Source: Parcubacteria group bacterium
GTDB taxonomy: Bacteria; Patescibacteriota; Minisyncoccia; Phycocordibacterales; DATDWN01
Direction of reading: 5' to 3'
NCBI GenBank assembly: GCA_035438705.1
Contig: DAORIV010000001.1
Span: 43,593-107,592 of the forward strand
Length of the DNA: 64,000 nucleotides
Part shown: positions 43,969 to 63,835 of the stretch, one piece after another
Position numbering within the stretch: position 1 is the stretch's first letter
Layout of the letters: each line of letters begins with the position of its first letter
Translations under genes and position numbers: made by a program
Notes under the pieces: model-generated
What the model saw: only the letters and a program-made list of their open reading frames with translations
Databases searched by the model: none
What the model was told of the DNA's origin: nothing

Positions 43969-44055
43969 GGATAGGTGGATGAGTGGTTTAAATCAACGGT
44001 TTACTAAACCGTCGTAGGGTAAAACCTACCGAGAGTTCGAATCTCTCCCTATCCG
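43969..44055 (+). tRNA. class II tRNA (Ser-like, long variable arm) with anticodon loop UUACUAA, apparent anticodon ACU
   Basis: acceptor GGATAGG/CCTATCC, D-stem GAT/ATC, anticodon stem ACGGT/ACCGT, variable arm GTAGG..CCTAC, T-arm GAGAGTTCGAATCTCTC, discriminator G. Confidence 0.6.
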
Positions 44056-44058
44056 CAT

Positions 44059-47760: not shown

Positions 47761-49485
47761 ATGGATATTATTCAAATACTAGTACAAAAAGGACTACTGG
47801 ATAAAAAGGATGTTGATTCTATAAAAGATGAAGCCGTTTCATCCGGCTCAACTATTGAACAAGCGCTAATAAAAAGAGGTATCTCTCCTCACGATATTCT
47901 TCTCGCAAAAGGGGAATATTTTGATGTTCCTACTAAAAATCTTGGCGATATTGTAATTACAGAAAAAATTCTAAAATACATTCCAGAAGACTCTGCTTCA
48001 CACTATCATTTTATTCCAATAGCAGTGACTAAGGGTGTTTTGGAGGTTGGAATGGTTAATCCAGACGATATTGAAGCTAGGGACGCATTAAACTTTATTT
48101 CCTCAAAAACAGGTTTGCCATTTAAGATTTACTTAATAACAGAAACTGATTTTGAAAAAGTATTTTCACAGTACAAAGGTTTTTCAGCGGAAGTTTCTAA
48201 ATCTCTTTCTGAACTTGAGAATGAGTTAAAAATGGAAACTACATTAGCCGAAGAAAGAGTAAAAGCTGAAAATGCAGATACTACAGCTCAAGATACACAA
48301 CTTGCTGAAGACGCTCCGGTTACTAAAATAGTGGCTACAGTCCTTCGATATGCTACAGACGGCAATGCTTCCGATGTTCATATAGAGCCATGGAGAGAAA
48401 ATGTAAAAGTTAGATTTCGTGTAGATGGAACCATGAATACAAGTTTACTTCTTCCAATTAAAGTACATCCTGCTGTGGTTGCTCGTATTAAAATACTAAG
48501 TGAAATGAGACTTGATGAAAAAAGAAAGCCTCAAGACGGAAGATTTACAACTAGAATTGATGATAGAAAAATAGATTTTCGTGTTTCAACATTTCCAACA
48601 TATTTTGGAGAAAAAGTGGTGATGAGACTTCTTGATCAAGAGAAGGGTGTAAAAGGTTTAGATAAGTTGGGACTTAGTGAGAGAAACATTAGTATGATTA
48701 GAGCAGCAATTAAAAAACCTTTCGGATTAATACTTATTTCTGGTCCTACCGGATCTGGAAAAACAACCACATTGTATTCCATGTTGAATGAGTTGGATAG
48801 GGAACACCAAAATGTTCTTTCACTAGAAGATCCTATAGAGTATAACATTGAAGGTATTTCCCAATCTCAGGTACAAGCAGATATAGGTTACACTTTTGCT
48901 TCTGGACTTAGAACAACTCTTCGTCAGGACCCAGATGTAATCATGGTGGGAGAGATTCGTGATAAAGAAACTGCTCAGCTTGCTATACAGGCAGCATTGA
49001 CCGGTCACTTGGTGCTTTCTACTATTCACACCAATACAGCTACTGGAGTAATTCCTAGACTCATAGATATGGGTGTTGATCCTTACCTTATTGCGCCTAC
49101 ACTAATACTGGCAATGGCACAAAGACTTACCCAAGCCCTTTGTCCGGATGCTGGCAAGCCTGAAAAAATCGAGGGAAGTTTGAAGGCAATGATTGATAAA
49201 CAGTTCAGTGACCTACCTCAGAAATATGTAGATGAGTTAAATTTAAAAGATGTTGTGTATCATGTCGGCTCAAGTGATGAGTGTCCAAATGGTACAAGGG
49301 GCAGAATGGCGGTAATGGAAGTGTTTGAAATGGATAAGGATTTGGAAAATGCAATACTTAAGGGGGCAAACGAGTTGGATATTGCAAAAATAGTAAGACA
49401 AAAAGGAATGATAACAATGAAGGAGGATGCGATTGTTAAATCCATGAACAAACTAGTTCCTTTTGAAGAAGTTAACATGCTATAA
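47761..49485 (+). CDS. pilB: type IV pilus assembly ATPase PilB (full length with N-terminal GspE_N domain)
   Basis: Walker A ISGPTGSGKTTTLYS, Asp/His boxes, tetracysteine motif; 574 aa. Confidence 0.9.
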   Translation: MDIIQILVQKGLLDKKDVDSIKDEAVSSGSTIEQALIKRGISPHDILLAKGEYFDVPTKNLGDIVITEKILKYIPEDSASHYHFIPIAVTKGVLEVGMVNPDDIEARDALNFISSKTGLPFKIYLITETDFEKVFSQYKGFSAEVSKSLSELENELKMETTLAEERVKAENADTTAQDTQLAEDAPVTKIVATVLRYATDGNASDVHIEPWRENVKVRFRVDGTMNTSLLLPIKVHPAVVARIKILSEMRLDEKRKPQDGRFTTRIDDRKIDFRVSTFPTYFGEKVVMRLLDQEKGVKGLDKLGLSERNISMIRAAIKKPFGLILISGPTGSGKTTTLYSMLNELDREHQNVLSLEDPIEYNIEGISQSQVQADIGYTFASGLRTTLRQDPDVIMVGEIRDKETAQLAIQAALTGHLVLSTIHTNTATGVIPRLIDMGVDPYLIAPTLILAMAQRLTQALCPDAGKPEKIEGSLKAMIDKQFSDLPQKYVDELNLKDVVYHVGSSDECPNGTRGRMAVMEVFEMDKDLENAILKGANELDIAKIVRQKGMITMKEDAIVKSMNKLVPFEEVNML

Positions 49486-49508
49486 TTAAATTACTTTATA
49501 CTCAAGTT

Positions 49509-49901
49509 ATGGAAGCTGATAAAAAAAATTTAAAAATACTACTTGTTGATGATGATCGTTTTCTGTTGGATATGTATATTTTGAAATTTAAGAAATCAGG
49601 TCTAGATATTGATACTGCATCAAATGGTGCTGCAGCATTAGAAAAAATAAAATCTGGGGTAGAGTATGACATAGTGCTTTCTGACATAATTATGCCAAGC
49701 ATGGATGGACTAGAGCTTTTAAAGACCATGAGAACGGAAAAAATACTTCCAAATGCAACTGTCATAATGCTAACAAATCAAGCAGATGATTATGATAAAG
49801 CAAAGGCTTTGGGAGTTGATGGTTATATTATAAAAGCCACAACAATCCCATCTGAAGTTGTAGAAAAAGTATTAACCATTTATAAAAATAAGAAAAAATA
49901 A
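49509..49901 (+). CDS. stand-alone response-regulator receiver (CheY-like) protein
   Basis: LLVDDD...D(S)D..MP..DG REC motifs, 130 aa. Confidence 0.8.
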   Translation: MEADKKNLKILLVDDDRFLLDMYILKFKKSGLDIDTASNGAAALEKIKSGVEYDIVLSDIIMPSMDGLELLKTMRTEKILPNATVIMLTNQADDYDKAKALGVDGYIIKATTIPSEVVEKVLTIYKNKKK

Positions 49902-49903
49902 AA

Positions 49904-50971
49904 ATGTCAGCTGATTATAAAAAAGATTTTGAAAACTTAGTTTCAATAATGGTGCAAGAAGAGGCATCAGATTTACACTTGTCTGAAGGAAGAAAACCTA
50001 CAGTAAGAGCATCGGGGATATTGATACAACTTGAGAATTATCCAGTTATGGCTCATGCAGATATGAAAGGTATACTTGACGCGTTGCTTGATGAAGTTAA
50101 GAAAGAAGTTTTTGAACAAAAAAAAGAAGTTGATTTTTCTTACTTAACAACTGAAGGTTCACGTTTGAGAGGAAACGCTTTTCACAGAATGGATAAAATA
50201 AGTATTGCATTTAGACTTATCCCAAAACAAATAAAAACTTTAGCTGAATTAAAAATTCCTACTATTCTAGAGACATTTACAAGAAAAAAACAAGGTTTCT
50301 TTTTGGTGGTAGGTCCAACAGGTCAGGGTAAAAGTACAACTCTTGCTGCTCTAATTGAAATGATTAACCAAGAAAGACTTGCTCATATTGTTACCATTGA
50401 AGATCCTGTAGAGTATGTTTTTGAATCAAAAAAATCAATTATTGACCAAAGAGAAGTTCTAGAAGACACACCAGATTTTCATACGGCTTTACAAGGCGCC
50501 TTTAGACAGGATATAGATGTGCTTATGATTGGAGAAATGCGAACACCAGAAGATATAGCTACTGCTGTTACTGCTGCAGAAACAGGACATTTGGTTTTTT
50601 CTACGCTTCACACTAACAATGCTGCTCAAACTATAGATCGTATTATTGATTCATTTGACACCATGGCTCAGAAACAAATACGTACACAATTAGCTTCCTC
50701 TTTGCTTGCAGTATTTTCTCAAAGACTCATACCTACAGTTTCAAAAGGATTAGTTCCATCTGTAGAATTACTTATAAACAACAGTGCAGTCGCAAATCTT
50801 ATTCGTGAGGGTAGGACTCATGAAATCAATTCTGTTATTGAGACAAGTTCAGAGCAGGGAATGATAGATTCAAATAGGTATTTAAGTGATTTGGTTCGGG
50901 CGGGAGAGATATCTATCGAAAATGCTTTCTTGTATTCTCAAAATTCAAAAGGTCTAGAAAGAATGTTGTAG
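49904..50971 (+). CDS. pilT: twitching motility / pilus retraction ATPase PilT
   Basis: Walker A VVGPTGQGKSTTL, 355 aa PilT-size. Confidence 0.85.
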   Translation: MSADYKKDFENLVSIMVQEEASDLHLSEGRKPTVRASGILIQLENYPVMAHADMKGILDALLDEVKKEVFEQKKEVDFSYLTTEGSRLRGNAFHRMDKISIAFRLIPKQIKTLAELKIPTILETFTRKKQGFFLVVGPTGQGKSTTLAALIEMINQERLAHIVTIEDPVEYVFESKKSIIDQREVLEDTPDFHTALQGAFRQDIDVLMIGEMRTPEDIATAVTAAETGHLVFSTLHTNNAAQTIDRIIDSFDTMAQKQIRTQLASSLLAVFSQRLIPTVSKGLVPSVELLINNSAVANLIREGRTHEINSVIETSSEQGMIDSNRYLSDLVRAGEISIENAFLYSQNSKGLERML

Positions 50972-50988
50972 AATAAGAATACTTAAAT

Positions 50989-52197
50989 ATGATTTTTAAA
51001 TACAAAGCCATAACAAATACTGGAGAACAGAGAACAGGTACTATTGAGGCTTTTAATGTTGATATAGCAATTAATCAACTACAGAAATCTGGTTTAATTA
51101 TTTCTCAGATTTCTTCCAATGAAGAAGAAAAGGGTTTTAAGATTCCACTCATGTCTTTTTTTAATAAAATATCCAATAAAGACATTGTTATTTTATCAAG
51201 ACAAATAGCCACACTCTTTCAAGCCCAGGTTTCAGCTTTAAGAATTTTTAGATTACTTAGCGAGCAAGCCGAGAATCCTACTTTAAAAAAATATTTAGTT
51301 ACTATTTCTGAAGATATACAAGGTGGAAGTTCTATCTCAAAAGCAATTGAAAAATACCCAACAGCTTTTTCTAGTTTTTATGTAAACATGGTTCGTTCAG
51401 GAGAGGAATCGGGAAAGTTGGATGAGATTTTTAACTATCTGGCAGATTATATGGATAGAACTTATGAAGTTACTTCAAAAGCAAAAAATGCACTTATTTA
51501 TCCAGCTTTCATTATACTGACTTTCATAGGTGTTATGGTGTTGATGTTTACAGTTATTATTCCAAAAATTGCTTTGATGATTGAAGATTCAGGTCAACCA
51601 ATACCTTTTTATACTAAAGTAGTTTTGTGGGTGAGTGACCTTTTGGTAAACAATATAATTCTAATTGGTATAGGAGTTATAGTTATTTCATATTTAACTT
51701 GGCGTTATGCAAGAACTGAAGAAGGTTCATTATATTTGGATAAGCTAAAACTAGATGTCCCATATATCGGTAGTTTATATAGAAAACTATATCTCTCCAG
51801 AATATCAGACAACCTAAACACAATGATTATTTCTGGTATACCAATTATTAAAGCACTTGAAATTACATCCGCTGTTGTAGATAACAAAATTTATCAGGGA
51901 ATACTAACTGATGCATTAAAGAAGGTTAAAGAAGGTACACCACTCTCTGAGGCGTTTTCTCAACATAAGGAGATTCCTGTTTTGTTAAGTCAGATGATAA
52001 AGGTCGGAGAGGAGACAGGAGAATTGGGAAGTATTTTAAAATCATTGGCCAAATTTTATCAAAGAGAGGTTACTGGGGCTGTGGATACATTAGTAGGTTT
52101 AATTGAGCCAGTAATGATAGTGGGTCTTGGATTAGGAGTAGGTTTCTTGCTTGCGGCTGTGCTGATGCCAATCTATAACATCGCCTCCGCAACATAA
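50989..52197 (+). CDS. pilC: type IV pilus platform protein PilC
   Basis: two T2SSF repeats, 402 aa. Confidence 0.85.
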   Translation: MIFKYKAITNTGEQRTGTIEAFNVDIAINQLQKSGLIISQISSNEEEKGFKIPLMSFFNKISNKDIVILSRQIATLFQAQVSALRIFRLLSEQAENPTLKKYLVTISEDIQGGSSISKAIEKYPTAFSSFYVNMVRSGEESGKLDEIFNYLADYMDRTYEVTSKAKNALIYPAFIILTFIGVMVLMFTVIIPKIALMIEDSGQPIPFYTKVVLWVSDLLVNNIILIGIGVIVISYLTWRYARTEEGSLYLDKLKLDVPYIGSLYRKLYLSRISDNLNTMIISGIPIIKALEITSAVVDNKIYQGILTDALKKVKEGTPLSEAFSQHKEIPVLLSQMIKVGEETGELGSILKSLAKFYQREVTGAVDTLVGLIEPVMIVGLGLGVGFLLAAVLMPIYNIASAT

Positions 52198-52398
52198 AAC
52201 TTCCAAATCTGGCGAACTTCTTGTTTCGAGTTTGTAAATTTTCGTCAACGTATATCTAATACGTTTTCTCAGATTTATAAACTCTCAACATCGAATTTCA
52301 TTCAGATTTGAAAGTTTTACTTAAAAATTGGAATTATGTGTTGGGAAGATAAATCAGATTATGAAAGTTTTATCAAATTAAGATATAATTATCTGAAT

Positions 52399-52839
52399 AT
52401 GAATCATAAAAAAGGTTTTACCATAATTGAGTTACTTATGGTTATCGCAATAATAGGTTTACTTTCTACAATCGTGCTTACTTCATTAAGTGGTGCTAGA
52501 AATAGAGGTAGTGATGCTGCTGTAAAAAGCAACTTAAACAGTATACGTTCTGCTGCAGATCTATTTTATGATAACAATGGCACTTCTTATGGAACATTTG
52601 CAATTGGTAATTGCGTTTCAGGTTCTGGAATGTTCGGCAATTCAACAATAATTTCTGCTATCAATGCAGCTATTTCTGCAGGTGACGGCACCTCGAGGTG
52701 TGTATCTTCTGGAACAGCATATGCTGTGGCTGTAGGCATGAAAACCATAGGTCAGTCATGGTGCATAGATAGTTTGGGTAGATCTAAGCTGTATCTTGGT
52801 AATCCAGTTTCAGCTATTTCTGGGTCTAGCTGTAATTAG
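52399..52839 (+). CDS. type IV pilin (major pilin paralog 1)
   Basis: class III signal KKGF|TIIELLMVIAIIG with Glu+5; C-terminal Cys pair (WCIDS...SSCN). Confidence 0.85.
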   Translation: MNHKKGFTIIELLMVIAIIGLLSTIVLTSLSGARNRGSDAAVKSNLNSIRSAADLFYDNNGTSYGTFAIGNCVSGSGMFGNSTIISAINAAISAGDGTSRCVSSGTAYAVAVGMKTIGQSWCIDSLGRSKLYLGNPVSAISGSSCN

Positions 52840-53008
52840 CTTGTGCCTTATCCACAGTGCCACTTTTAATGGGTTTGAAGCAGAAGTATAATATGTATAT
52901 TCGTTTAGTAAAAACGGTAAACTCTCAAAATGTAAATAGCGAGAGGAACGGTCGAGTGGTAAAATTAAATTTATTTATAAGAAAAAATAATAATTTTTAA
53001 AATTAATT

Positions 53009-53446
53009 ATGTCAAAAAGATTTTCACAAGGTTTTACACTTATTGAGTTGTTGGTTGTTATTGCAATTATCGGTATTCTATCATCAGTTGTTCTAGCTTC
53101 TCTTAACACAGCAAGAGGAAAGGGAGCAAACGTTGCTGTAAAAAGTAACCTAAACAACATGAGAGCAGCAGCAGAACTTTTCTACGATAACAACTCTAAT
53201 GTTTACACAGGTTTCTGTGCTACACAAACAGCAGCTATGGCTTCAGCGGCTTCAGCGGGAGGTGGAACAGCAGGAGCATCATCAAACGATTGTAATGATG
53301 CTGCCGGTGCGTGGGCTGCTTACTCTCTACTAAAGGTAGCAGAAGGAACAACAGTTCTATGGTGCGTAGACTCAACAGGAGCATCAAAGGGACAAACAGC
53401 AGCTAACCAAACATCACTTGGTACAACAGCTACAGCTTGTATATAA
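53009..53446 (+). CDS. type IV pilin (major pilin paralog 2, Ala-rich, GC-richer)
   Basis: SQGF|TLIELLVVIAIIG; WCVDS...TACI. Confidence 0.85.
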   Translation: MSKRFSQGFTLIELLVVIAIIGILSSVVLASLNTARGKGANVAVKSNLNNMRAAAELFYDNNSNVYTGFCATQTAAMASAASAGGGTAGASSNDCNDAAGAWAAYSLLKVAEGTTVLWCVDSTGASKGQTAANQTSLGTTATACI

Positions 53447-53468
53447 TATTTATCTTATATAAGTTATC

Positions 53469-53492
53469 AAAACCGGCTAATGGCCGGTTTTG
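53469..53492 (+). terminator. terminator AACCGGC-TAAT-GGCCGGTTTT
   Basis: hairpin plus T-run after pilin 2. Confidence 0.6.
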
Positions 53493-53576
53493 TGTTTATA
53501 AGTTTGTTGTTAATCAAATCAAATCTCTAGTATAATTATAAGTACATAAATTATTATTATTATTATTTTATACATT

Positions 53577-53987
53577 ATGATTGAAACAAAGAAAGGTTTT
53601 ACCCTTATTGAGCTTCTGGTTGTAATTGCAATCATTGGTGTACTTTCAAGTATTACTCTAACTCAACTTAACTCATCCAGAAACAAGGGTGCTGACGCAT
53701 CAGTTAAATCTAATCTGGTAAACATGCGAGGCGTTGCAGAAAACCTGTATGATGCAGCTACTGGAACTAATGGTTTTAACCAAGTCTGTGCCAACTCTTC
53801 TATTTCGGCTATGCAGGCAGCAGCGGTTGCGGCAGGTGGAAACGGTGGTACTTGTGCAAACGCAATAGGATACTGGGTTGCATGGGCAGGACTAAAAACA
53901 AACACAGCAAATGCTTGGTGCGTAGATAGTGTGGGGAATTCAAAACAAATAGTTAAACCAGTCGGAGGCATAACCGTGTGTCCTTAA
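53577..53987 (+). CDS. type IV pilin (major pilin paralog 3)
   Basis: KKGF|TLIELLVVIAIIG; WCVDS...TVCP. Confidence 0.85.
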   Translation: MIETKKGFTLIELLVVIAIIGVLSSITLTQLNSSRNKGADASVKSNLVNMRGVAENLYDAATGTNGFNQVCANSSISAMQAAAVAAGGNGGTCANAIGYWVAWAGLKTNTANAWCVDSVGNSKQIVKPVGGITVCP

Positions 53988-53991
53988 TTAA

Positions 53992-54837
53992 ATGGATCTA
54001 TTTTTTATAACATTAGTTTTTATACTAGGGGCTCTCGTAGGAAGTTTTGTTAATGTAGTTAGTTTGCGTCATGGTACAGGTCTTTCTTCTGCTGTTGGAA
54101 GATCAAGATGCTTTAGTTGTAATACTCAGCTTAAATGGTATGAGCTAGTTCCTATTTTCAGTTTCATATTTCTTAGGGGGGAGTGTAGAACATGTAGGAG
54201 TAGAATATCTATACAATATCCACTGATTGAGTTTTTAACTGGCTTAGTTTTTGTGGGGGTAATTGTGAGACAGATAAGTCTGTGGCCAATCTATAGTGGT
54301 TTTGAAAATGGTCTCATGTTTTCAACACTGCTTGCGGTGTATTATTTTCTAATTTTCAGTATTTTATTCGTGATTATGATTTATGATTTTAAGCATAAAA
54401 TAATTCCGAATTTCTTCGTTTATTCTTTTATACTTCTGAGTCTTTCAAAGCTACTGTTATTTATGTATCTGAAATATCCTGCACTAGAAAAAATAGATTT
54501 ATTTGATATGGCAGCACCTCTCATACTTTTCTTGTTTTTTGCAACTATGTGGATAGTTTCATCGGGAATGTGGATTGGTTTTGGGGATGCAAAGCTCGTT
54601 TTCGGTATCGGGGCATTACTTGGTTTTGCATACGGTATAGGAGCAGTGGTTTTAGGTTTTTGGATAGGGGCAGTATGGAGTATTTTGTTAATAATAAAAA
54701 ATAAAATATATAGAAGTAATAGTAGTATAGGCATGAAAACTGAAATACCGTTTGCACCATTCTTAATACTTGGAACAATAATAGTGTTTATTTTTAGAAT
54801 CGATGTTATGAATTTATCAGCTTTTTTTGGAGTTTAG
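53992..54837 (+). CDS. pilD: prepilin peptidase PilD (A24 family) with N-terminal zinc-finger
   Basis: CFSCNTQL...CRTCRSRI N-terminal Cys tetrad, polytopic membrane peptidase/methyltransferase-like. Confidence 0.8.
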
Positions 54838-54846
54838 ATAAGTAGT

Positions 54847-55419
54847 ATGTTTAAAACAAACAAAGCATTTTCACTAGTAGAGTTGATTGTTACTGTTTCA
54901 ATTATGACAGTAATACTTTCTGTAGTTTTATACAACTATGGTGGTTTTAATGACAAGTTGGCGCTTTCCGCTGGAGCACAGGAACTTGCAGTTTCTATAA
55001 GACAGGCACAAGCATTTGGTATTAATGTTAAGGAATCTGCTGTTAGTAGCGGACAGTTTAACTATGCCTATGGGATATCTTTTAGTAATCAAACACCTGG
55101 AAGTTACTACATATATGTAGATTCAAACTCAAACAATAAATATGATTCAGGTGGAGGAGAGTTGGTAGAAAGAGTAGATTTTAAAAATGGAATAACTATA
55201 AACAATATTTGTGATTCTACGACTTGTCCAGCATCTGGGGTTACTACTATGAGTGTGAGATTTCTAAGACCCAACCCTGATGCACGAATATATTTTTTAA
55301 ATAGTAGTGGGACTGTAGTATCTGGTCCGATCTCATATGGAAGAGTACAACTTCGCTCACCTAAAGGAACTTTTTCATATGTTATTATTGAAAGTACTGG
55401 TCAGATAGTTGTTCAATAA
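54847..55419 (+). CDS. minor pilin/pseudopilin (FimT/GspH-like)
   Basis: KAF|SLVELIVTVSIM prepilin leader. Confidence 0.7.
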   Translation: MFKTNKAFSLVELIVTVSIMTVILSVVLYNYGGFNDKLALSAGAQELAVSIRQAQAFGINVKESAVSSGQFNYAYGISFSNQTPGSYYIYVDSNSNNKYDSGGGELVERVDFKNGITINNICDSTTCPASGVTTMSVRFLRPNPDARIYFLNSSGTVVSGPISYGRVQLRSPKGTFSYVIIESTGQIVVQ

Positions 55420-55987
55420 AATGTGTACCAACAAAGAATTAAAAAAAGGATTTACATTGATTGAGATTATGGTTTCAATTTCAGTGTTTGCAATAGTGAT
55501 GCTTGTCTCAAGTGGATCAATTTTTAGTGTTTTTGATGCAAATAGAAAATCGCAAACTCTTAGAAGTGTTATGGATAACCTGAATCTGTCTTTGGAGTCT
55601 ATGACCAGGACTATTCGTTTTGGAAGTGTTTACCATTGCGACATTACTCAAGGTGGGGCATTGAGTACTACTAGAGATTGTGCGGGTGGGGCTACTTCTA
55701 TTGCTGTTCTGGATTCTGCAGGGCAACAAATTGTATATAGATTAGACGGCACAAGAATTTCTAGAAGTATAAATGGTGGGGCATATCAGTATGTTACCGG
55801 TACAGATGTATCTATTAACAGCCTTAACTTTTTCGTTCTAGGTTCTACACCTTATTCAAGCGGTAGCAATATAATACAACCAAAAGTAATTATTTCCGTA
55901 ACTGGTCATGCGGGTACAAAAACTTCAAGTCGTACGGATTTTAGATTGCAGACTATGGTATCCCAAAGACTTTTTGATTCACAATAA
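55409..55987 (+). CDS. minor pilin (PilW/GspJ-like)
   Basis: KKGF|TLIEIMVSISVFAI prepilin leader. Confidence 0.7.
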   Translation: MFNKMCTNKELKKGFTLIEIMVSISVFAIVMLVSSGSIFSVFDANRKSQTLRSVMDNLNLSLESMTRTIRFGSVYHCDITQGGALSTTRDCAGGATSIAVLDSAGQQIVYRLDGTRISRSINGGAYQYVTGTDVSINSLNFFVLGSTPYSSGSNIIQPKVIISVTGHAGTKTSSRTDFRLQTMVSQRLFDSQ

Positions 55988-55988
55988 A

Positions 55989-56519
55989 ATGAAAAAAATT
56001 ACTAAAAAAACAGGATTTACTTTAGTTGAGACACTTGTAGCAATAAGTATTTTGTCATTGTCTATATTGGCAGGCTTTACTGCAGTACAAAATGGTCTTA
56101 AATCCTCACTCACAGCCAAAAATCAAGTCATTGCTTTTTATTTGGTACAAGAGGCAATGGAATATATCAAGAATAAAAGAGATAACAATGCTTTGGATTT
56201 TATCAATGGGGGAAGCAGTACATGGTTAACAGGTTTATCTTCGTGTGCAAGTCCATCAGTGTGTTATATAGATGTACCAACAGATACAATTACCGCTTGC
56301 TCCGGGGTAAATACTACATGTCCTAATTTGGTTGTTAAAAACTCAAATGGTTTATATGGCTATAATGCAGCGGGTGTCACAACAAATTTTAAAAGGGCAA
56401 TTTCTTATCAAGTAGTTAGTGCTGATGAAGTAACTGTTACCATATGGATAAGTTGGACACAGGGGATTACAACAAAATCATTTCAGGTTACTCATTCTTT
56501 GTTTAACAGACTGCAATAA
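55989..56519 (+). CDS. minor pilin (PilV/GspI-like)
   Basis: KTGF|TLVETLVAISILS prepilin leader; ATG at 55989. Confidence 0.7.
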   Translation: MKKITKKTGFTLVETLVAISILSLSILAGFTAVQNGLKSSLTAKNQVIAFYLVQEAMEYIKNKRDNNALDFINGGSSTWLTGLSSCASPSVCYIDVPTDTITACSGVNTTCPNLVVKNSNGLYGYNAAGVTTNFKRAISYQVVSADEVTVTIWISWTQGITTKSFQVTHSLFNRLQ

Positions 56520-56521
56520 TT

Positions 56522-56983
56522 ATGAATAATAAAAATAAAAAAAAGGCTGGTTTTACTATACTTGTAGCTGTGATAGTTACCGGAATGCTTCTTATAGTAA
56601 GTTTTGCTGTTGTAAATATTGCAGTAAGACAATTGATACTCGCTAATTCAAATGAGGAATCACAACATGCATTTTATGCGGCAGATAGTGGAACAGAGTG
56701 TGCTGTATACTGGGATTTTAGAAATGGTGTGAGTGCTTTTGCAACCACAAGTTCAAGTCTTATTTCCTGTGGAACAATGATAAATCAGTCTGTTGGCGGA
56801 GGGGGGCTAGGGAATGCTACAAGTACATTTCAGCTAAATTTCACAAAAGGATGTGCTGTGGTGCAAGTAGGTAAACACTATATTTCTGGAAATTTGGTTA
56901 CAATAATAGACTCTCGAGGTTATAACACTTGTGCCGTGGGAGCAATAAGAAAACTAGAGAGAGCTGAAAAACTTACCTACTAG
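56522..56983 (+). CDS. minor pilin (PilX-like)
   Basis: KAGF|TILVAVIVTG leader, 153 aa. Confidence 0.6.
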   Translation: MNNKNKKKAGFTILVAVIVTGMLLIVSFAVVNIAVRQLILANSNEESQHAFYAADSGTECAVYWDFRNGVSAFATTSSSLISCGTMINQSVGGGGLGNATSTFQLNFTKGCAVVQVGKHYISGNLVTIIDSRGYNTCAVGAIRKLERAEKLTY

Positions 56984-57003: not shown

Positions 57004-59010
<2,007 letters not shown>

Positions 59011-59046
59011 TTCTTTCATTATTGTGGTATTATCGATTTTAAGGAT

Positions 59047-59325
59047 ATGGTAAATAAAGATGAAGTAAAGAATTTAGCTGATCTGGCTAGAGTCAGGTTA
59101 AGTGATGAGGAGGCTGAGGCTCTATCAAAAGAGATAGATTCTATCTTGGCGTATGTCGGACAAATAAAGGATGCCTCTGTGGAGGATGAGGTTTTGGTTC
59201 CTGTGTTGAAAAATGTAATGAGAGAAGATGAACCTAAAAACAAAGATGATGAATATACAGAAGATATACTAAATAATGCGCCAAGTAGAGAGGGGAGATT
59301 TCTGAAAGTTAAAAAAATTTTATGA
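59047..59325 (+). CDS. gatC: Asp/Glu-tRNA(Asn/Gln) amidotransferase subunit C
   Basis: 92 aa GatC-like, immediately upstream of gatA with 4-nt overlap. Confidence 0.85.
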   Translation: MVNKDEVKNLADLARVRLSDEEAEALSKEIDSILAYVGQIKDASVEDEVLVPVLKNVMREDEPKNKDDEYTEDILNNAPSREGRFLKVKKIL

Positions 59326-60749
59326 TAGATCTACATAAATTAACCATAAAAGAAGCTCGGGAAAATCTTCAAAAAAAAGTATTTTCAGCAAAAGATTTAG
59401 CTCTGAGTTATTTATCTAGAATAAAGGAAGTTAATGGAGATATTAATGCTTATCTGGAAGTATATGATGATGTAATAAAACAGGCTGAAGAAGCTGATAA
59501 AAAAATAGCAAATGGAGAAGATTTGCCACTGCTCGGAATACCTTTGGCTATTAAAGATAACATATTGGTAAGGGGCAAAAGAGCTACTTCAGCATCTAAA
59601 ATTTTGGAAGGTTTTATTTCTCCTTATGATGCGACAGTTATTACCAAGCTAAAAGAAGCTGGGGCAATTTTTCTGGGTAGGGTAAATATGGATGAATTTG
59701 CAATGGGTGGTTCTACAGAGAATTCAGCATTTGGAGTTACAAAAAATCCTCTTGATTTTACCCGTGTTCCAGGGGGTTCTTCTGGGGGCTCTATAGCTGC
59801 CGTGGCAATGGATGGGGCATTAGCTTCGCTTGGTTCTGATACTGGTGGTTCAGTTCGTGAACCAGCTTCATTTTGTGGTGTTGTGGGTTTAAAACCTACA
59901 TATGGAGGTGTTTCAAGACATGGTTTAATGGCACTTGGCTCTTCACTAGATGTTATAGGTCCTATTACAAAGACTGCAACAGATTCAGAAACACTTTTTA
60001 ATTGTATTAAAGGTATTGATCCTATGGATAGTACAACTTACAGTGAAGATACTTATCCAAAAGCAGTTGTAAAAGATAAAATGGTGATCGGTGTTCCATA
60101 TCATATTTTAAATAAAGGGGGTATTTCAAAAGAGGCGAGAGAAGTTTTCGATAATTCAGTAGATAAATTAAAAAAATTAGGTTTTGAAATAAAAGAAATA
60201 GAGTTGCCTAATATAGAATACTCGCTTGCTGTTTACTATATTATTATGCCTGCGGAAGCGTCTTCAAATTTGGCTCGTTTTGACGGAGTAAGGTTTGGTT
60301 TGCATAAAGACGGAGATAATCTGTTAGAAGATTACTTGAAAACAAAGGGGGAAGGATTTGGAAAAGAAGTAAGAAGAAGAATATTAATTGGAACTTATGT
60401 TCTTTCAGCTGGTTATCATGATGCATATTACAACAAAGCACTGAAGCTTAGATCCAAAATTTCAAAAGATTTTGAGAAAGCTTTTAAAGACGTAGATGCG
60501 ATAATTACACCGACAACTACTGGAGTAGCGTTTAAGATTGGTGAAAAAGCAAATGACCCACTATCACTTTACTTAGAAGATATTTTCACAGTTCCTGCCA
60601 ATATTGTGGGTATTCCAGCGATATCTATACCATCAGGAACAATTTCTGTTTCTGAAAAAGAGCTTCCACTTGGTTTGCAAATAATGTCAAAACATAACGC
60701 TGAGAATATTCTGTTTCATATTTCTAAAAAGTTTTTGGGGGAAAACTAG
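59322..60749 (+). CDS. gatA: Asp/Glu-tRNA(Asn/Gln) amidotransferase subunit A
   Basis: amidase signature GGSSGGS..., 475 aa. Confidence 0.93.
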   Translation: MIDLHKLTIKEARENLQKKVFSAKDLALSYLSRIKEVNGDINAYLEVYDDVIKQAEEADKKIANGEDLPLLGIPLAIKDNILVRGKRATSASKILEGFISPYDATVITKLKEAGAIFLGRVNMDEFAMGGSTENSAFGVTKNPLDFTRVPGGSSGGSIAAVAMDGALASLGSDTGGSVREPASFCGVVGLKPTYGGVSRHGLMALGSSLDVIGPITKTATDSETLFNCIKGIDPMDSTTYSEDTYPKAVVKDKMVIGVPYHILNKGGISKEAREVFDNSVDKLKKLGFEIKEIELPNIEYSLAVYYIIMPAEASSNLARFDGVRFGLHKDGDNLLEDYLKTKGEGFGKEVRRRILIGTYVLSAGYHDAYYNKALKLRSKISKDFEKAFKDVDAIITPTTTGVAFKIGEKANDPLSLYLEDIFTVPANIVGIPAISIPSGTISVSEKELPLGLQIMSKHNAENILFHISKKFLGEN

Positions 60750-60783
60750 ATACTCTATAATTACTGCTGTATAATATAAAAAT

Positions 60784-62208
60784 ATGGCGGATGATAAAGC
60801 TAAAAGCGACAAACCTGCAGCGGGTGGAAGTGATCCATTTGTTGAAATTGTATGGACAATCCTAGCTATTTTGCTTTTGGTCACAGCAATAAACAGTATA
60901 TCTGCTTTTCTAAGTCAAAGTAAGTTTTTTTCTAAAGGTTGGAAGTCTTTAACACCACAAGGTTTGCTTGCATCTACAACTAAACCAATTTCTTCACTTA
61001 TAAACCCAATCGGTGCAAAGTTTATAGTTACCTCAAGTAATGCAGATATTTATAACACCCCAGGTGGAGAAAAAATTTCAACAAAAAAACTTGGAGATAA
61101 GGGGGTGATTGTGGGCGGTCCAGTTAATTACAATGGTCAAAAATATTGGCAAGTAAAGTTTGATGATGGTACAACGGGTTGGGTAAATGAAAAGGATATT
61201 GGTGCTATAGTGCAAAAAATTACTCCAATGAGTGAGATGGAAACTCTTATTGGCACACAAGTAGAGACAAATAAAGAGGCTAAAGTATATAGCAGACCTG
61301 GTGAGGATGAAATTGCAACTGTTCCAAAAGGAAGTAAGGCTATTATAATTGAAGGCCCTCTAATTGTAGACGGTGTGAAATACTGGCACGTCCGTTTTGA
61401 TGATGGTACAGAAGGATGGGTAGATGAAGATGCTTTGGATAGTTTGAGTGGAGAAAGGGAACCTCTATCTAAAAAACCAAGCCTAATTGGCGGGAATGTG
61501 GAGACTAGTAAAGATGGCACTAAAATTTATGATAGTCCTGGTGGGAATGTTGTGGGAACAAAAGAAAAAGGTGTGTCGGGTAAAATTATTGAAGGTCCTC
61601 TGGTTGTAGACGGTGTGAAATACTGGCACGTCCGTTTTGATGATGGTACAGAAGGATGGGTTTCTGAAAATGATTTAGTTTACGTGGAACAGGATAACAG
61701 TGGGATAATTTTAAGTATAGTTAAGTTTTTAAGTAACCTATTTTCATTTACTAAATTTTTGTTGGTTGTCGTTTCATTAGGATTAATATTTTGGATAGTT
61801 TATTTATTGAATGGAATAAATAGATTGGCTTCCGAACAAAATAAATTATTGTATCCAAATGGTAGTGTTTCAGAATTACCAAACACTGAGGTTGGTAATC
61901 CAAGATGGGAAAGGGTTCTAAGTCACACTATTTCTCAGAATGAAAATGATTGGAGACTTGCGATCATGGAGGCAGATATAATGTTAGGGGATTTGCTGGA
62001 AACAATGTCACTTCCAGGCAATACTATTGGTGATAAACTTAAAGCCATTGAGAAGTCTGATTTCCTTACACTAGATAATGCTTGGGAGGCCCATAAGGTT
62101 AGAAATCTTATTGCTCATGAAGGCATGAACCATAAAATTACTCAAAAAGAAGTAAATAGAGTTATTGATTTATATAAATCTGTATTTGATGAATTTAAAA
62201 TAATATAA
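60784..62208 (+). CDS. membrane protein with three tandem SH3b-like repeats, a second TM and a C-terminal domain containing an R-x4-H (HEPN-like) motif
   Basis: repeats ...GPLVVDGVKYWHVRFDDGTEGWV...; TM at ~20-45 and ~310-340; KVRNLIAHEG near C-terminus. Confidence 0.6.
   Translation: MADDKAKSDKPAAGGSDPFVEIVWTILAILLLVTAINSISAFLSQSKFFSKGWKSLTPQGLLASTTKPISSLINPIGAKFIVTSSNADIYNTPGGEKISTKKLGDKGVIVGGPVNYNGQKYWQVKFDDGTTGWVNEKDIGAIVQKITPMSEMETLIGTQVETNKEAKVYSRPGEDEIATVPKGSKAIIIEGPLIVDGVKYWHVRFDDGTEGWVDEDALDSLSGEREPLSKKPSLIGGNVETSKDGTKIYDSPGGNVVGTKEKGVSGKIIEGPLVVDGVKYWHVRFDDGTEGWVSENDLVYVEQDNSGIILSIVKFLSNLFSFTKFLLVVVSLGLIFWIVYLLNGINRLASEQNKLLYPNGSVSELPNTEVGNPRWERVLSHTISQNENDWRLAIMEADIMLGDLLETMSLPGNTIGDKLKAIEKSDFLTLDNAWEAHKVRNLIAHEGMNHKITQKEVNRVIDLYKSVFDEFKII
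61348..61421 (+). repeat. SH3b-repeat DNA copy A (~74 bp)
   Basis: near-identical to 61588..61661 (53-nt perfect core). Confidence 0.8.
61588..61661 (+). repeat. SH3b-repeat DNA copy B (~74 bp)
   Basis: near-identical to 61348..61421. Confidence 0.8.
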
Positions 62209-62429: not shown

Positions 62430-62506
62430 TGGCGCGCCCGGCCGGACTCGAACCGGTAACCTCTCCCGTGACAGGGGAGTGCTCTAACCAGTTGAGCTAC
62501 GAGCGC
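62430..62506 (-). tRNA. tRNA-Asp (anticodon GUC), CCA encoded
   Basis: GCGCTCG acceptor, D-arm TAGCTCAACTGGTTAGAGCA, anticodon loop CTGTCAC, T-arm CCGGTTCGAGTCCGG. Confidence 0.85.
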
Positions 62507-62560
62507 ATTTTCTGGTTAACAGGTAAAATCTACCAGATTTTTAGAAATATATCAATTTGT

Positions 62561-62582
62561 TTGTGTCGGCGGGAGGACTCGA
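62561..62582. repeat. 22-bp duplicate of the tRNA-Met 3-prime end (TTGTGTCGGCGGGAGGACTCGA); remainder not tRNA-like
   Basis: identical to 62727..62748. Confidence 0.6.
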
Positions 62583-62669
62583 CAACAACTCAAAATTCGT
62601 CGTCACTCATTTTGGTTTCTTTCCCAGCTCGCGACCTAGTTTGCTAACTAAGGTGCCCGCTCCGTTTTT

Positions 62670-62723
62670 CTAGTCCTCACAAAAGCTCTCCTAGAGCTTT
62701 TTCCGCGATACAAAAACAAATGC
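62670..62723. repeat. repeated hairpin element (CAAAAGCTCTCCTAGAGCTTTTTCCG...) 3-prime of tRNA-Met on the minus strand
   Basis: paralogous to 62361..62410. Confidence 0.5.
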
Positions 62724-62728
62724 TTTTG

Positions 62729-62802
62729 TGTCGGCGGGAGGACTCGAACCTCCGACCTTGGGCTTATGAGTCCCACGCTCTAACCACCTGAGCTACGCCG
62801 AC
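62729..62802 (-). tRNA. tRNA-Met (anticodon CAU; elongator-like, could be tRNA-Ile2/lysidine)
   Basis: GTCGGCG acceptor, D-arm TAGCTCAGGTGGTTAGAGC, anticodon loop CTCATAA, T-arm GGAGGTTCGAGTCCTCC, discriminator A, no CCA. Confidence 0.8.
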
Positions 62803-63036
62803 AATATAGGAAATATAACAGAAAATAAGGAAAAACGGAATATAAAACATACCAGGGACTTTTTCTAGATTCTTATTCGTCGACACTCATAAGAATCTAG
62901 AACGCAGATTTGCGACAATCCGTACTCGGATTGTAAACCGCAAATCTGTGCAAGTTCTGACGTAAACTACCCCAGGTAGTTTACTGTCCTCGAACAAGTA
63001 AGCAAAAACTCCTAAAAAGGAGTTTTTGCTTACTTG

Positions 63037-63107
63037 TTGCGGGACCAGGACTTGCACCTGGGTCTGCAGGTTATGAGCCTACCGAGATACTGCTTCTCTA
63101 TCCCGCT
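63037..63107 (-). tRNA. second CAU-anticodon tRNA (initiator-like 1:72 mismatch, atypical T-loop TGCAAGT); Met/fMet/Ile2 undetermined
   Basis: AGCGGGA/TCCCGCA acceptor with A1-A72, D-arm GAGA-AGCAGTA-TCTC, anticodon stem-loop GTAGG-CTCATAA-CCTGC. Confidence 0.55.
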
Positions 63108-63184: not shown

Positions 63185-63835
63185 ATGAATAAAATTGGTT
63201 CCGGTGTTCAGTACAATGCTTATGATATTGGAAACAATAGAATCAAAAAGATTCCAACCACTTTTTTTGAAAAAATTATAAGATTTCACAAGATTGCTAG
63301 AAAGTATAAACTCTATCTACACCCATTACATAATATAAAAACCTGTGTGCTTGCTAGTAAACAAACTAAAGAATCTGCTGAAAATTTATTGAAGCATATG
63401 GCAAGTATCGATCAAAGATTATTGGGTAATCCCAAAATCAATTCTGATTATAGTTATGAGCAAGATAAGGTGTATATATTTGGAGAGAAGCTTGATTCTT
63501 ATGACATTTCAAAACAAAAAGCATTAATCGATGCTTATATTGAAAATATATTGTCATGTTTTGATTATGGTTTTAGTGATACTAATTTTAATTTTATGAT
63601 AAACAGTGGTGTAACTGAAGACGGTAAGGTCATACTAATTGATTTAGGGGAGCTTAGTTGGAATAAGGAGGAAATAAGAAAATTGGTTATAAGTAAGCAT
63701 TGGGAAAAAAGGGGATCATTTAACAAATTAGAAGACGGCGAATTGAAAGATTATTTACGCAAGGAGCTAGAACAGAGAGTGAATATAGATAGCTTTGAAA
63801 ATAGATGGGGGTCAAAAATAAATAAGTATGAATAA
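63185..63835 (+). CDS. hypothetical protein (possible atypical kinase-like fold)
   Basis: 216-aa ORF; FSDTNFNF ... ILIDLGE loosely resembles catalytic-loop/DFG spacing of protein-kinase-like folds. Confidence 0.4.
   Translation: MNKIGSGVQYNAYDIGNNRIKKIPTTFFEKIIRFHKIARKYKLYLHPLHNIKTCVLASKQTKESAENLLKHMASIDQRLLGNPKINSDYSYEQDKVYIFGEKLDSYDISKQKALIDAYIENILSCFDYGFSDTNFNFMINSGVTEDGKVILIDLGELSWNKEEIRKLVISKHWEKRGSFNKLEDGELKDYLRKELEQRVNIDSFENRWGSKINKYE

What the first reader, a model, noticed from the sequence alone, without database searches (positions are those of the whole stretch)
60784..62208. Membrane protein with three SH3b repeats and a C-terminal R-x4-H (HEPN-like) motif
The architecture is TM, then 3 SH3b-like beta repeats (two encoded by near-identical 74-bp DNA repeats), then a second TM, then a ~130-aa C-terminal domain containing KVRNLIAHEG. 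This matches the R-[NHQ]-x3-H catalytic signature of HEPN RNases. A surface-sensing module coupled to a putative intracellular RNase would be an abortive-infection or stress-sensor type single-protein system, and it sits next to a tRNA cluster.
Basis: inference. Interest (0 to 1): 0.55.

Follow-up and report, generated by a model that had tools for sequence, protein, structure and literature searches.

The report
Membrane-tethered HEPN protein of Paceibacteria
The gene encodes a membrane protein with three cell-wall-binding SH3b repeats outside the cell and a predicted HEPN-type RNA-cutting domain inside. It belongs to a large unnamed family that behaves like a conserved core gene of one group of ultra-small bacteria, not like a mobile anti-phage device.

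Summary
Two of the repeats share a 74-nt stretch that is 71/74 identical.

The abortive-infection reading is not supported. The family comprises at least 1881 clusters at 50% identity and at least 550 species-level genomes; all 80 retained loci come from Parcubacteria/Paceibacteria-type assemblies. In 78/80 genomes the gene sits directly after ligA-gatC-gatA. A tRNA(CAT)-tRNA(CAT)-tRNA-Asp cluster usually follows it. It is about as conserved as GatA and LigA. It has no partner gene, no defence-model hit above noise, and no match in phages, plasmids or IMG/VR.

Most members are about 220 aa, made of a TM hairpin plus HEPN. SH3b repeats, from 0 to about 6, are a variable insertion in the outer loop.

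My best reading is a core, membrane-tethered, dimerisation-dependent HEPN endoribonuclease. Its substrate is unknown, and tRNA or membrane-proximal RNA are candidates. In this lineage it is anchored to the cell wall.

No Pfam or NCBIfam family describes the HEPN domain, and I found no paper on it.

The parts
60784..62208 (+). Whole gene: 474-aa TM-(SH3b)x3-TM-HEPN protein
   Evidence: ORF list. An identical protein, P0256, is in JGI data under the name 'SH3-like domain-containing protein'. The full-length AF2 model has mean pLDDT 86.
60784..60834 (+). N-terminal cytoplasmic tail (aa 1-17), conserved MADDKK...KPA...DPFVEIVW signature leading into TM1
   Evidence: Alignments A1 and A3. Model confidence is low here.
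60835..60918 (+). TM1 (aa 18-45), signal-anchor helix
   Evidence: Hydropathy. AF2 helix 18-45.
61018..61209 (+). SH3b/GW-like repeat 1 (aa 79-142), extracytoplasmic
61258..61443 (+). SH3b/GW-like repeat 2 (aa 159-220)
61495..61686 (+). SH3b/GW-like repeat 3 (aa 238-301)
61348..61421 (+). First copy of the 74-nt near-identical DNA repeat (second half of repeat 2)
   Evidence: 71/74 identical to 61588-61661, with a 58-nt exact run. Orthologous repeats in relatives are 71-79% identical, while paralogous repeats are only 38-62% identical. The identical patch therefore looks like local gene conversion between old repeats.
61588..61661 (+). Second copy of the 74-nt repeat (second half of repeat 3)
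61699..61851 (+). Long helix aa 306-356 containing TM2 (hydrophobic core aa ~322-346) and a short cytoplasmic stalk
   Evidence: Hydropathy. AF2 helix 306-356. The flank after TM2 is rich in K/R across the family.
61852..61899 (+). Flexible linker aa 357-372, variable in length and sequence
   Evidence: pLDDT below 50 for aa 360-368. The corresponding alignment columns are variable.
61900..62205 (+). Cytoplasmic HEPN domain (aa 373-474): helix 1 373-382, helix 2 387-407, insert helix 415-421, helix 3 430-449, helix 4 454-470
61969..61977 (+). E396-A397-D398 in helix 2: the conserved acidic residues expected near a HEPN active site
   Evidence: E396 and D398 are invariant in A2, and D398 is invariant in A3. 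The position matches the helix-2 acidic residue described for HEPN in PMC3710099.
62092..62124 (+). H437-K438-x-R440-N441-x3-H445-E446-G447: predicted catalytic motif at the C-terminal end of helix 3
   Evidence: RNxxxH in 366/366 and H[KR]xRNxxxH in 364/366 family proteins. The invariant residues fall on one helical face. [quoted passage not shown]
57013..60749 (+). Conserved upstream neighbours ligA (57013-59010), gatC (59047-59325) and gatA (59322-60749); there is a 34-nt gap between gatA and the gene
   Evidence: The same order and strand occur in 78/80 related genomes, with a median gatA-to-X gap of 37 nt.
62430..63107 (-). Conserved downstream tRNA cluster, inverted in this window: tRNA-Asp(GTC) 62430-62506, tRNA(CAT) 62728-62802, initiator-like 72-nt tRNA(CAT) 63036-63107
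   Evidence: Cluster statistics across 64 genomes. A1.A72 mismatch in the 72-nt tRNA.

Best explanation
**What it is.** The gene encodes a member of a large, unnamed, vertically inherited protein family of Paceibacteria/Parcubacteria (Patescibacteria). The conserved core of the family is a two-helix membrane hairpin with both termini in the cytoplasm, followed by a short flexible linker and a cytoplasmic HEPN domain.

**How I expect it to work.**
- I expect it to be a metal-independent endoribonuclease. As in all characterised HEPN RNases, two copies would have to pair so that their R-N-x3-H motifs, helped by H437 and E396/D398, form one active site.
- Cleavage would leave 2',3'-cyclic phosphate and 5'-OH ends.
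- The membrane hairpin confines the enzyme to RNA at the inner face of the membrane and probably governs pairing.

**Role of the SH3b repeats.** In this organism and its relatives, the short outer loop has been expanded by SH3b/GW-type cell-wall-binding repeats. There are three here and 0 to about 6 across the family. They tie the hairpin to the organism's own, or a host's, cell-wall polymer. This is an accessory anchoring or modulating feature, not the core function.

**Biological role.** Fixed genomic position, conservation level and absence from mobile elements point to a housekeeping or regulatory RNA-processing or RNA-decay role. This would be an analogue of membrane-anchored RNase Y, or of eukaryotic Ire1/Las1-type 'domesticated' HEPNs, and not a defence toxin.

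**Shown versus inferred.** Architecture, HEPN fold, motif conservation, distribution and synteny are shown. Topology, RNase activity, dimerisation, substrate and role are inferred.

For: **Active-site layout.** It matches the published HEPN definition: Rx4H at the end of helix 3, a polar residue after R, an acidic residue in helix 2, and an insert between helices 2 and 3 (PMC3710099).

**Conservation.** RNxxxH is present in 366/366 members. W375, W390, E396, D398, H437, R440, N441, H445 and G447 are invariant.

**Weak sequence signal.** HEPN families are the most frequent Pfam matches among members: HEPN_Swt1 17/72, RiboL-PSP 8/72, and Cthe2314, Csm6_HEPN and pEK499_p136 3/72 each.

**Family size.** 1881 clusters at 50% identity with E<=1e-3, and at least 550 species-representative genomes; all 80 retained loci are Parcubacteria/Paceibacteria-type assemblies.

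**Synteny.** ligA-gatC-gatA-X in 78/80 genomes, with a downstream tRNA cluster in 54/64.

**Conservation relative to neighbours.** Median identity to the window is 53% for the X C-terminus, against 61% for GatA, 58.5% for LigA and 44% for GatC.

**Topology.** Positive-inside statistics support N-in/C-in.

**Ectodomain.** SH3b repeat number varies from 0 to 6. The ectodomain, when present, is always SH3b-like.

**Composition and mobility.** GC content matches the neighbours. There are no hits in phages, plasmids or IMG/VR.
Against: - No biochemical evidence exists. RNase activity, dimerisation and topology are all inferred.
- Foldseek against the PDB found nothing significant (best E 0.39).
- No Pfam HEPN model reaches its gathering score. 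The best is HEPN_Swt1 at 16.9 bits against 27.5.
- Sequence and profile searches of the PDB find nothing.
- The Ex3[KR] form of the helix-2 acidic motif is not present.
- Long-range synteny in this lineage also includes unrelated genes: type IV pilus genes, ligA and gatCA. Linkage to gatCA and the tRNAs therefore shows vertical inheritance, not a shared function, and the substrate remains a guess.
- I could not test whether these genomes lack RNase Y/E, nor whether the gene is present in every Paceibacteria genome.
Confidence: 0.55

Rival explanations
1. Envelope-state sensor of the Ire1 type. The SH3b ectodomain, or the short loop in minimal members, binds a cell-wall ligand of the organism or its host. 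This drives or releases dimerisation of the hairpin, switching the cytoplasmic HEPN RNase on as a regulated stress or attachment response instead of a constitutive enzyme.
For: - The architecture parallels sensor-TM-HEPN proteins. Anantharaman et al. 2013 proposed exactly this logic for bacterial membrane HEPNs (PMC3710099 section 15).
- HEPN RNases generally need dimerisation (established knowledge).
- The SH3b repeats resemble ligand-binding modules of autolysins, endolysins and InlB.
- Repeat number changes quickly between relatives, as expected for a surface-interaction module.
- Paceibacteria are reported to attach to host cells and to express cell-wall-binding proteins highly (PMC10936435).
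Against: - About two thirds of family members have only a ~28-aa loop with no recognisable sensor domain, so ligand sensing cannot be the conserved core mechanism.
- There is no evidence of any kind for ligand-dependent dimerisation.
Confidence: 0.2
2. Non-catalytic HEPN. The domain binds RNA (for example tRNA), a nucleotide or a protein partner and acts as a membrane tether or scaffold. One possibility is localising the GatCA amidotransferase or tRNA handling to the membrane.
For: - The gene follows gatC-gatA at a median gap of 37 nt in 78/80 genomes and precedes tRNA genes.
Against: - Non-catalytic HEPNs typically have lost the Rx4H motif (PMC3710099). Here R, N and H are invariant in 366/366 sequences, together with H437 and the helix-2 acidic residues.
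- The synteny block also holds unrelated genes (pilins, ligA), so linkage to gatCA is weak functional evidence.
- gatB is neither adjacent nor in the window.
Confidence: 0.13
3. One reading: a single-protein abortive-infection or toxin-type defence system. The surface module detects phage attack, and the HEPN RNase then kills or arrests the cell.
For: - Most characterised bacterial HEPN proteins belong to conflict systems such as TA, Abi, CRISPR and R-M (PMC3710099).
- Membrane-bound HEPN proteins occur in defence, for example Csx28 (bioRxiv 10.1101/2021.11.02.466367).
- There is one weak PADLOC CARF_HEPN hit at E 0.0035.
Against: - The chromosomal position is fixed between gatA and an initiator-like tRNA in nearly all genomes examined.
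- Each of the 80 loci comes from a different assembly.
- Conservation is comparable to core enzymes.
- There is no neighbouring antitoxin, MNT, cas or R-M gene.
- There is no significant PADLOC model.
- The family is absent from 50,697 phage records, 72,556 plasmids and 2.9 million viral contigs.
- Composition is native.
Confidence: 0.07

Closest known systems
HEPN superfamily, MNT-associated HEPN toxins and HEPN-T proteins (AF0298/2hsb, SO_3166 HepT/5yep, TTHA0636/1wwp, 7ae2, 8xdj)
   Same: - They share the four-helix HEPN core with an insert between helices 2 and 3.
- They share R-x4-H at the end of helix 3 with a polar residue after R.
- The second conserved His upstream of the motif (H437) recalls the AF0298/AbiV-type alternative histidine (PMC3710099).
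   Different: - Sequence identity is only 6-12%.
- There is no adjacent MNT nucleotidyltransferase or antitoxin.
- This protein is membrane-anchored, whereas those are small soluble proteins.
- This is a core, fixed-position gene, whereas those are mobile TA modules.
Swt1-like HEPN (Pfam PF18731) and other Pfam HEPN families (RiboL-PSP PF18735, Cthe_2314, Csm6_HEPN, pEK499_p136)
   Same: These are the most frequent weak sequence matches across family members. The PF18731 match spans nearly the whole domain (aa 372-466 to profile positions 24-109 of 115).
   Different: All scores are below the gathering thresholds (best 16.9 bits against 27.5). The protein cannot be filed in any of these families.
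Bacterial membrane-associated HEPN groups of Anantharaman et al. 2013 (DUF4145 with WP-signature TM; STY4199-like single-TM; TM-pair plus Zn-ribbon)
   Same: All have a predicted cytoplasmic HEPN on an inner-membrane anchor with possible external sensing. The proposed logic is also the same: stimulus-dependent RNA cleavage at the membrane (PMC3710099 section 15).
   Different: - The architecture differs. Here it is an N-terminal TM hairpin with an SH3b-expandable loop and a C-terminal HEPN. There is no WP signature and no Zn ribbon.
- Those Pfam families give no hit.
- The phyletic pattern differs, being lineage-wide in Paceibacteria.
Ire1 / RNase L KEN domain and C6orf70 (eukaryotic membrane-tethered or domesticated HEPN RNases), and Las1
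   Same: These are conserved, non-conflict HEPN RNases. Ire1 and C6orf70 are membrane-anchored, with a sensor on the far side of the membrane and a dimerisation-activated RNase (PMC3710099).
   Different: - This protein has no kinase domain.
- KEN is a circularly permuted HEPN.
- Those proteins are eukaryotic.
- There is no detectable specific sequence relationship.
Csx28 (type VI-B CRISPR accessory membrane HEPN protein)
   Same: It is a bacterial TM plus divergent HEPN protein (bioRxiv 10.1101/2021.11.02.466367).
   Different: - Csx28 is encoded next to cas13b and forms a membrane pore, whereas no cas genes occur here.
RNase Y (membrane-anchored decay-initiating endoribonuclease of Firmicutes)
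   Same: This is a functional analogy only. Both are housekeeping endoribonucleases held at the membrane by an N-terminal TM segment (PMC11313650 and PMC4608709, listed).
   Different: The catalytic domains are unrelated: KH plus HD and metal-dependent in RNase Y, against HEPN and metal-independent here. They are not homologous.
SH3b / GW cell-wall-binding modules (Pfam SH3_3 PF08239, GW PF13457; InlB, AtlE R2ab, phage endolysin CBDs, NlpC/P60 N-terminal domains)
   Different: Here the repeats are inserted in the loop of a TM hairpin and coupled to a cytoplasmic HEPN domain. In the known proteins they are coupled to a secreted hydrolase or an adhesin.

Membership tests
HEPN superfamily | [quoted passage not shown] | tested here: met
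   [not shown]
HEPN superfamily | Rx4-6H motif at the end of helix 3, with a polar residue (N/D/H) after R | tested here: met
   R440-N441-L-I-A-H445 lies at the C-terminal end of helix 430-449. It is invariant in A2 and A3 and present in 366/366 relatives. Definition from PMC3710099.
HEPN superfamily | Conserved acidic residue in helix 2 near the motif (often Ex3[KR]) | tested here: inconclusive
   E396 and D398 in helix 2 are invariant or nearly invariant. However, the Ex3[KR] spacing is absent.
HEPN superfamily | Metal-independent RNase activity from a dimeric composite active site | not testable with these tools
   This needs biochemistry or a multimer prediction.
Swt1-like HEPN (PF18731) or any other Pfam HEPN family | Score at or above the family's gathering threshold | tested here: not met
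   The best score is 16.9 bits (E 0.008) against GA 27.5. PF18731 is hit by 17/72 members, all below threshold, and other HEPN families are weaker.
HEPN-MNT (HepT/MntA) toxin-antitoxin | Adjacent minimal nucleotidyltransferase antitoxin gene | tested here: not met
   The neighbours are gatA upstream and tRNA genes downstream, here and in 78/80 and 54/64 related genomes respectively. There is no room for a partner ORF, since the median distance to the first tRNA is 91 nt.
Known anti-phage defence systems (Abi families, CRISPR accessory HEPNs) | Match to a defence-protein model and location in variable or mobile context | tested here: not met
   PADLOC gives no hit for the full protein and one noise-level hit (E 0.0035) for the domain. 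The gene has a fixed core-gene context. There is no match in phages, plasmids or IMG/VR.
Membrane HEPN groups of Anantharaman 2013 (DUF4145-WP TM, STY4199-like, TM-pair+Zn-ribbon) | The respective HEPN family signature plus a WP-signature TM, a single TM after a helical domain, or a C-terminal Zn ribbon | tested here: not met
   No DUF4145 or STY4199 Pfam hit appears among the families listed, even at E<=1-10. The architecture is TM-loop-TM-HEPN with no Zn ribbon.
Bacterial SH3 (SH3_3, PF08239) / GW (PF13457) cell-wall-binding domains | Pfam score above the gathering threshold, and an SH3-like beta-barrel fold | tested here: met
   [not shown]
Bacterial SH3 (SH3_3) / GW cell-wall-binding domains | Binding to peptidoglycan or teichoic acid | not testable with these tools
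   This needs pull-down of the recombinant ectodomain with purified cell walls.

The most novel reading that the evidence does not exclude
This family would be the first bacterial example of a 'domesticated', lineage-wide, probably essential HEPN ribonuclease. It would be a membrane-anchored core RNA-processing or decay enzyme of Paceibacteria, acting for instance on initiator or elongator pre-tRNAs or initiating mRNA decay at the membrane in place of RNase E/Y. In some lineages, SH3b repeats would couple it physically to the cell wall or to the host surface. That would make it a prokaryotic counterpart of Ire1/Las1, not a conflict-system toxin.
Probability: 0.3. Interest if true: 0.75.

Novelty: new variant of a known kind. 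Interest (0 to 1): 0.55.

Why it matters
Characterised bacterial HEPN proteins are almost all toxins or effectors of conflict systems such as TA, Abi, CRISPR and R-M. They are patchy and fast-evolving.

This family behaves differently. It has an intact catalytic-type motif, yet it acts like a core gene in a whole class of ultra-small, genome-reduced bacteria. Its chromosomal position is fixed, it is about as conserved as GatA and LigA, and it is always membrane-anchored.

If it is an active RNase, three things follow:
- It adds a missing piece to the poorly known RNA metabolism of Patescibacteria.
- It gives a bacterial parallel to eukaryotic domesticated HEPNs (Ire1, Las1).
- It supplies an annotation for what are at present at least 1881 sequence clusters of 'hypothetical' or 'SH3/GW domain' proteins.

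The variable SH3b insert also offers a testable link between the cell envelope, or host attachment, and cytoplasmic RNA cleavage.

Tried and rejected
**Sequence and structure searches**
- Sequence and profile searches of the PDB found only TM-helix noise and one irrelevant CBS protein.
- The afdb50 library was unavailable.

**Family libraries**
- NCBIfam has no model for the C-terminal domain.
- PADLOC gave only a noise-level CARF_HEPN hit.

**Mobile-element test**
- tblastn against phages and plasmids, and a scan of IMG/VR, were all negative.

**Neighbourhood checks**
- Looked for gatB next to gatCA, to test whether X sits in the 'gatB slot' with functional meaning. gatB is not in the window among the ORFs tested, nor in loci L001, L003 or L005. 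I could not check whole genomes. The idea that X replaces GatB was rejected because X has no GatB-like domains.
- Considered that the tRNA adjacency was a coincidence of this window. This was rejected, because it is conserved.
- Considered that synteny with gatCA proves a functional link. This was down-weighted, because the conserved block also includes pilins and ligA.
- The promoter and terminator scan around the gene was no better than shuffled controls.

**Repeats**
- Considered recent tandem duplication as the origin of the 74-nt repeat. This was rejected in favour of local gene conversion, because orthologous repeats are more alike than paralogous ones.

**Literature**
- Searches for HEPN in Patescibacteria, or for membrane-anchored housekeeping HEPNs, found no description of this family.

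**Could not be determined**
- Whether these genomes lack RNase Y/E.
Full report
**1. The observation**

The ORF at 60784..62208 (+) is real and encodes 474 aa. Hydropathy gives two strong hydrophobic segments, aa ~18-45 and ~322-346.

Pfam finds three SH3b-type repeats. SH3_3 scores 34.9 bits against a cut-off of 27, and GW scores 36.4 bits against 21.

A full-length AlphaFold2 model built on 65 homologues has mean pLDDT 86. It shows:
- helix 18-45;
- three beta domains at 79-142, 159-220 and 238-301;
- one long helix, 306-356;
- a disordered linker, 357-372;
- a five-helix C-terminal domain, 373-470.

The 74-nt DNA repeat exists: 61348-61421 versus 61588-61661 is 71/74 identical, with a 58-nt exact run. 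Orthologous repeats in close relatives are 71-79% identical, while repeats within one protein are only 38-62% identical. The repeats are therefore old, and the identical patch is best read as local gene conversion between repeats 2 and 3.

RNLIAH at aa 440-445 is the only R[NHQD]xxxH in the protein. About 1% of shuffles contain such a motif, so alone it would be weak evidence.

**2. The C-terminal domain is a HEPN domain**

An AF2 model of aa 340-474, built with 72 homologues, has pLDDT above 90 across the folded part.

- then Csm6, HEPN toxin 7ae2, YutE, Roquin, kanamycin nucleotidyltransferase C-terminal domain, Csx1, HI0074, sacsin HEPN, MtlR and LsoA.

The published definition of the fold (Anantharaman et al. 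2013, PMC3710099) has four elements:
- Rx4-6H at the end of helix 3;
- a polar residue after R;
- a conserved acidic residue in helix 2;
- an insert between helices 2 and 3.

In the model, R440-N441-x3-H445 lies at the end of helix 430-449. E396 and D398 are in helix 387-407, and a short insert helix sits at 415-421.

The invariant residues of helix 3 (A433, W434, H437, K438, R440, N441, A444, H445) fall on one helical face.

The sequence-level signal is weak but consistent. HEPN_Swt1 is the most frequent Pfam match among 72 members (17/72, best E 0.008). RiboL-PSP-HEPN, Cthe_2314 HEPN, Csm6 HEPN and pEK499_p136 HEPN also recur among the weak matches. None reaches its gathering score.

Two negative results should be stated plainly. 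Foldseek against the PDB is not significant (best E 0.39). Sequence searches of the PDB find nothing.

My conclusion is that superfamily membership is well supported, but the domain belongs to no described HEPN family.

**3. The family**

A search with the C-terminal 167 aa finds about 984 proteins. An exhaustive phmmer search of 1.84 billion cluster representatives finds 1881 clusters at E<=1e-3 and 1054 at E<=1e-10.

Source names are 'hypothetical protein', 'SH3-like domain-containing protein' or 'GW dipeptide domain-containing protein'. Organism labels include Zambryskibacteria, Paceibacterota, Minisyncoccia and Parcubacteria. An identical 474-aa protein is in JGI data (P0256).

Most members are about 185-245 aa. 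They consist of a conserved N-terminal tail (MADDKK...DPFVEIVW), TM1, a loop of median 28 aa, TM2 and the HEPN domain. The SH3b repeats are therefore an insertion into the outer loop.

Lengths step through roughly 220, 315, 390, 475, 550, 610 and 700 aa, corresponding to 0 to about 6 repeats. In the long members sampled that gave any match, the loop matched only SH3b/GW/SlpA-like modules; three (P0144, P0195, P0251) gave no meaningful match.

RNxxxH is present in 366/366 proteins collected, and H[KR]xRNxxxH in 364/366.

K+R counts average 3.6 in the 15 residues after TM2 and 1.7 before TM1, against 1.8 in the whole loop. This fits an N-in/C-in topology, with the SH3b repeats outside and the HEPN domain in the cytoplasm.

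**4. Genomic context**

The 80 best loci are all Parcubacteria/Paceibacteria-type MAGs, each from a different assembly.

Upstream:
- In 78 of the 80 loci, ligA, gatC and gatA lie immediately upstream on the same strand.
- One exception is a contig end and the other is a rearranged locus.
- The median distance from gatA to the gene is 37 nt, and it is 34 nt in the window.

Downstream:
- 54 of the 64 loci with enough sequence have a tRNA within 1.5 kb.
- In 52 of them the first tRNA has a CAT anticodon.
- The median distance is 91 nt, and 42 are on the same strand.
- The typical order is tRNA(CAT)-tRNA(CAT)-tRNA-Asp(GTC), often followed by two tRNA-Thr.
- The first is a 72-nt tRNA with an A1.A72 mismatch. 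It is nearly identical across genomes and is probably the initiator tRNA.
- In the window the same three tRNAs are present but inverted.

Conservation, as median identity to the window's proteins:

| Protein | Median identity |
|---|---|
| HEPN-containing C-terminus | 53% |
| GatA | 61% |
| LigA | 58.5% |
| GatC | 44% |

GC content matches the neighbours. No relative occurs in 50,697 phage records, 72,556 plasmids or 2.9 million viral contigs.

One caveat matters. The conserved block extends further upstream into type IV pilus genes, both in the window and in relatives. The synteny therefore documents vertical inheritance and low rearrangement. It does not establish a functional operon with gatCA.

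**5. Interpretation**

The functional reading as an abortive-infection or single-protein stress system is not supported. The gene has none of the hallmarks of a conflict system:
- it is not patchy or mobile;
- it does not evolve fast;
- it has no partner gene;
- it does not sit in a defence island.

The supposed sensor module is also absent from most family members.

My best explanation (confidence about 0.55) is a core, membrane-tethered HEPN endoribonuclease. Its activity would depend on pairing of two cytoplasmic domains, and it would act on RNA at the membrane. In this lineage it would be anchored to cell-wall polymer by the SH3b repeats. The substrate is unknown. The tRNA-centred neighbourhood makes tRNA or pre-tRNA a candidate, but that is only a lead.

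The rivals are:
- an Ire1-like, ligand-regulated version of the same enzyme (0.2);
- a non-catalytic binding or scaffold HEPN (0.13);
- a defence toxin (0.07).

**6. Comparison with known systems and novelty**

Structurally the domain is closest to MNT-associated and HEPN-T proteins, but it lacks their partner gene and their soluble, mobile character.

In logic it is closest to the membrane-associated bacterial HEPNs predicted by Anantharaman et al. (PMC3710099, section 15) and to eukaryotic Ire1 and C6orf70. It shares none of their specific signatures.

RNase Y is a functional analogue only.

No Pfam, NCBIfam or PADLOC model covers the domain, and no paper in the searched library describes it.

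I rate it a new variant of a known kind. It is a new HEPN family with a new architecture, namely a TM hairpin whose loop is expandable by SH3b repeats. For a bacterial HEPN, its core-gene behaviour is unusual.

Interest is 0.55. The finding is solid, and it gives a large 'hypothetical' family a testable function. Activity, substrate and physiological role all remain inferred.

Noticed in passing
window 62430-63107 (minus strand); loci L007-L086 downstream of the homologue: A tRNA cluster follows the gene in most Paceibacteria genomes: an initiator-like 72-nt tRNA(CAT) with an A1.A72 mismatch, a second tRNA(CAT), tRNA-Asp(GTC), and often two tRNA-Thr. In this window the cluster is inverted. In about a quarter of genomes only the first tRNA is inverted.
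   Followed up: yes
window 43969-44056 (+): There is a tRNA-Ser with anticodon ACT (A at position 34, anticodon loop TTACTAA). It lies about 800 nt from a tRNA-Ser(GCT) on the other strand (43138-43230). An A34 serine tRNA is unusual in bacteria.
   Followed up: partly
window 47761-56983 (+): A type IV pilus gene cluster lies directly upstream of ligA. It comprises PilB-like and PilT-like ATPases, PilC, a prepilin peptidase and several N-methyl pilins plus a PilX-like protein. The pilin-ligA-gatCA order is also seen in L001 and L003, which indicates long-range synteny in this lineage.
   Followed up: partly
window 29275-31581 (+) and 33943-38799 (+): Two large ORFs (768 aa and 1618 aa) contain segments similar to the SH3b repeats of the gene (tblastn E 2e-6 and 2e-5). 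The 1618-aa protein also has a PG_binding_1 domain. They are probably further cell-wall- or host-binding surface proteins.
   Followed up: partly
window 25933-27336 (+): A 467-aa metallo-beta-lactamase/beta-CASP/RMMBL protein (RNase J- or CPSF-like) is present, so at least one other major RNase family is encoded in the same genome segment.
   Followed up: no
L001 6784-7003 (-), 7117-7189 (+), 7234-7905 (+): In one related genome, a group I intron (Rfam, 68 bits), a tRNA gene and a LAGLIDADG-type ORF lie immediately downstream of the homologue.
   Followed up: no
window 63185-63835 (+): A 216-aa ORF just beyond the tRNA cluster has no Pfam match at E<=1e-5.
   Followed up: no
window 60747-60775 (+): A promoter-like match (TAGATA-17-TATAAT) sits in the 34-nt gatA-to-gene spacer and ends 9 nt before the ATG. 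The scan as a whole is no better than shuffled sequence, so its significance is doubtful.
   Followed up: no
L020 4407-5396: This is the one clear synteny exception. A 329-aa single-SH3b homologue has unrelated small membrane and hypothetical ORFs upstream instead of ligA-gatCA. tRNA(CAT) and tRNA-Asp still lie about 1.2 kb downstream.
   Followed up: partly
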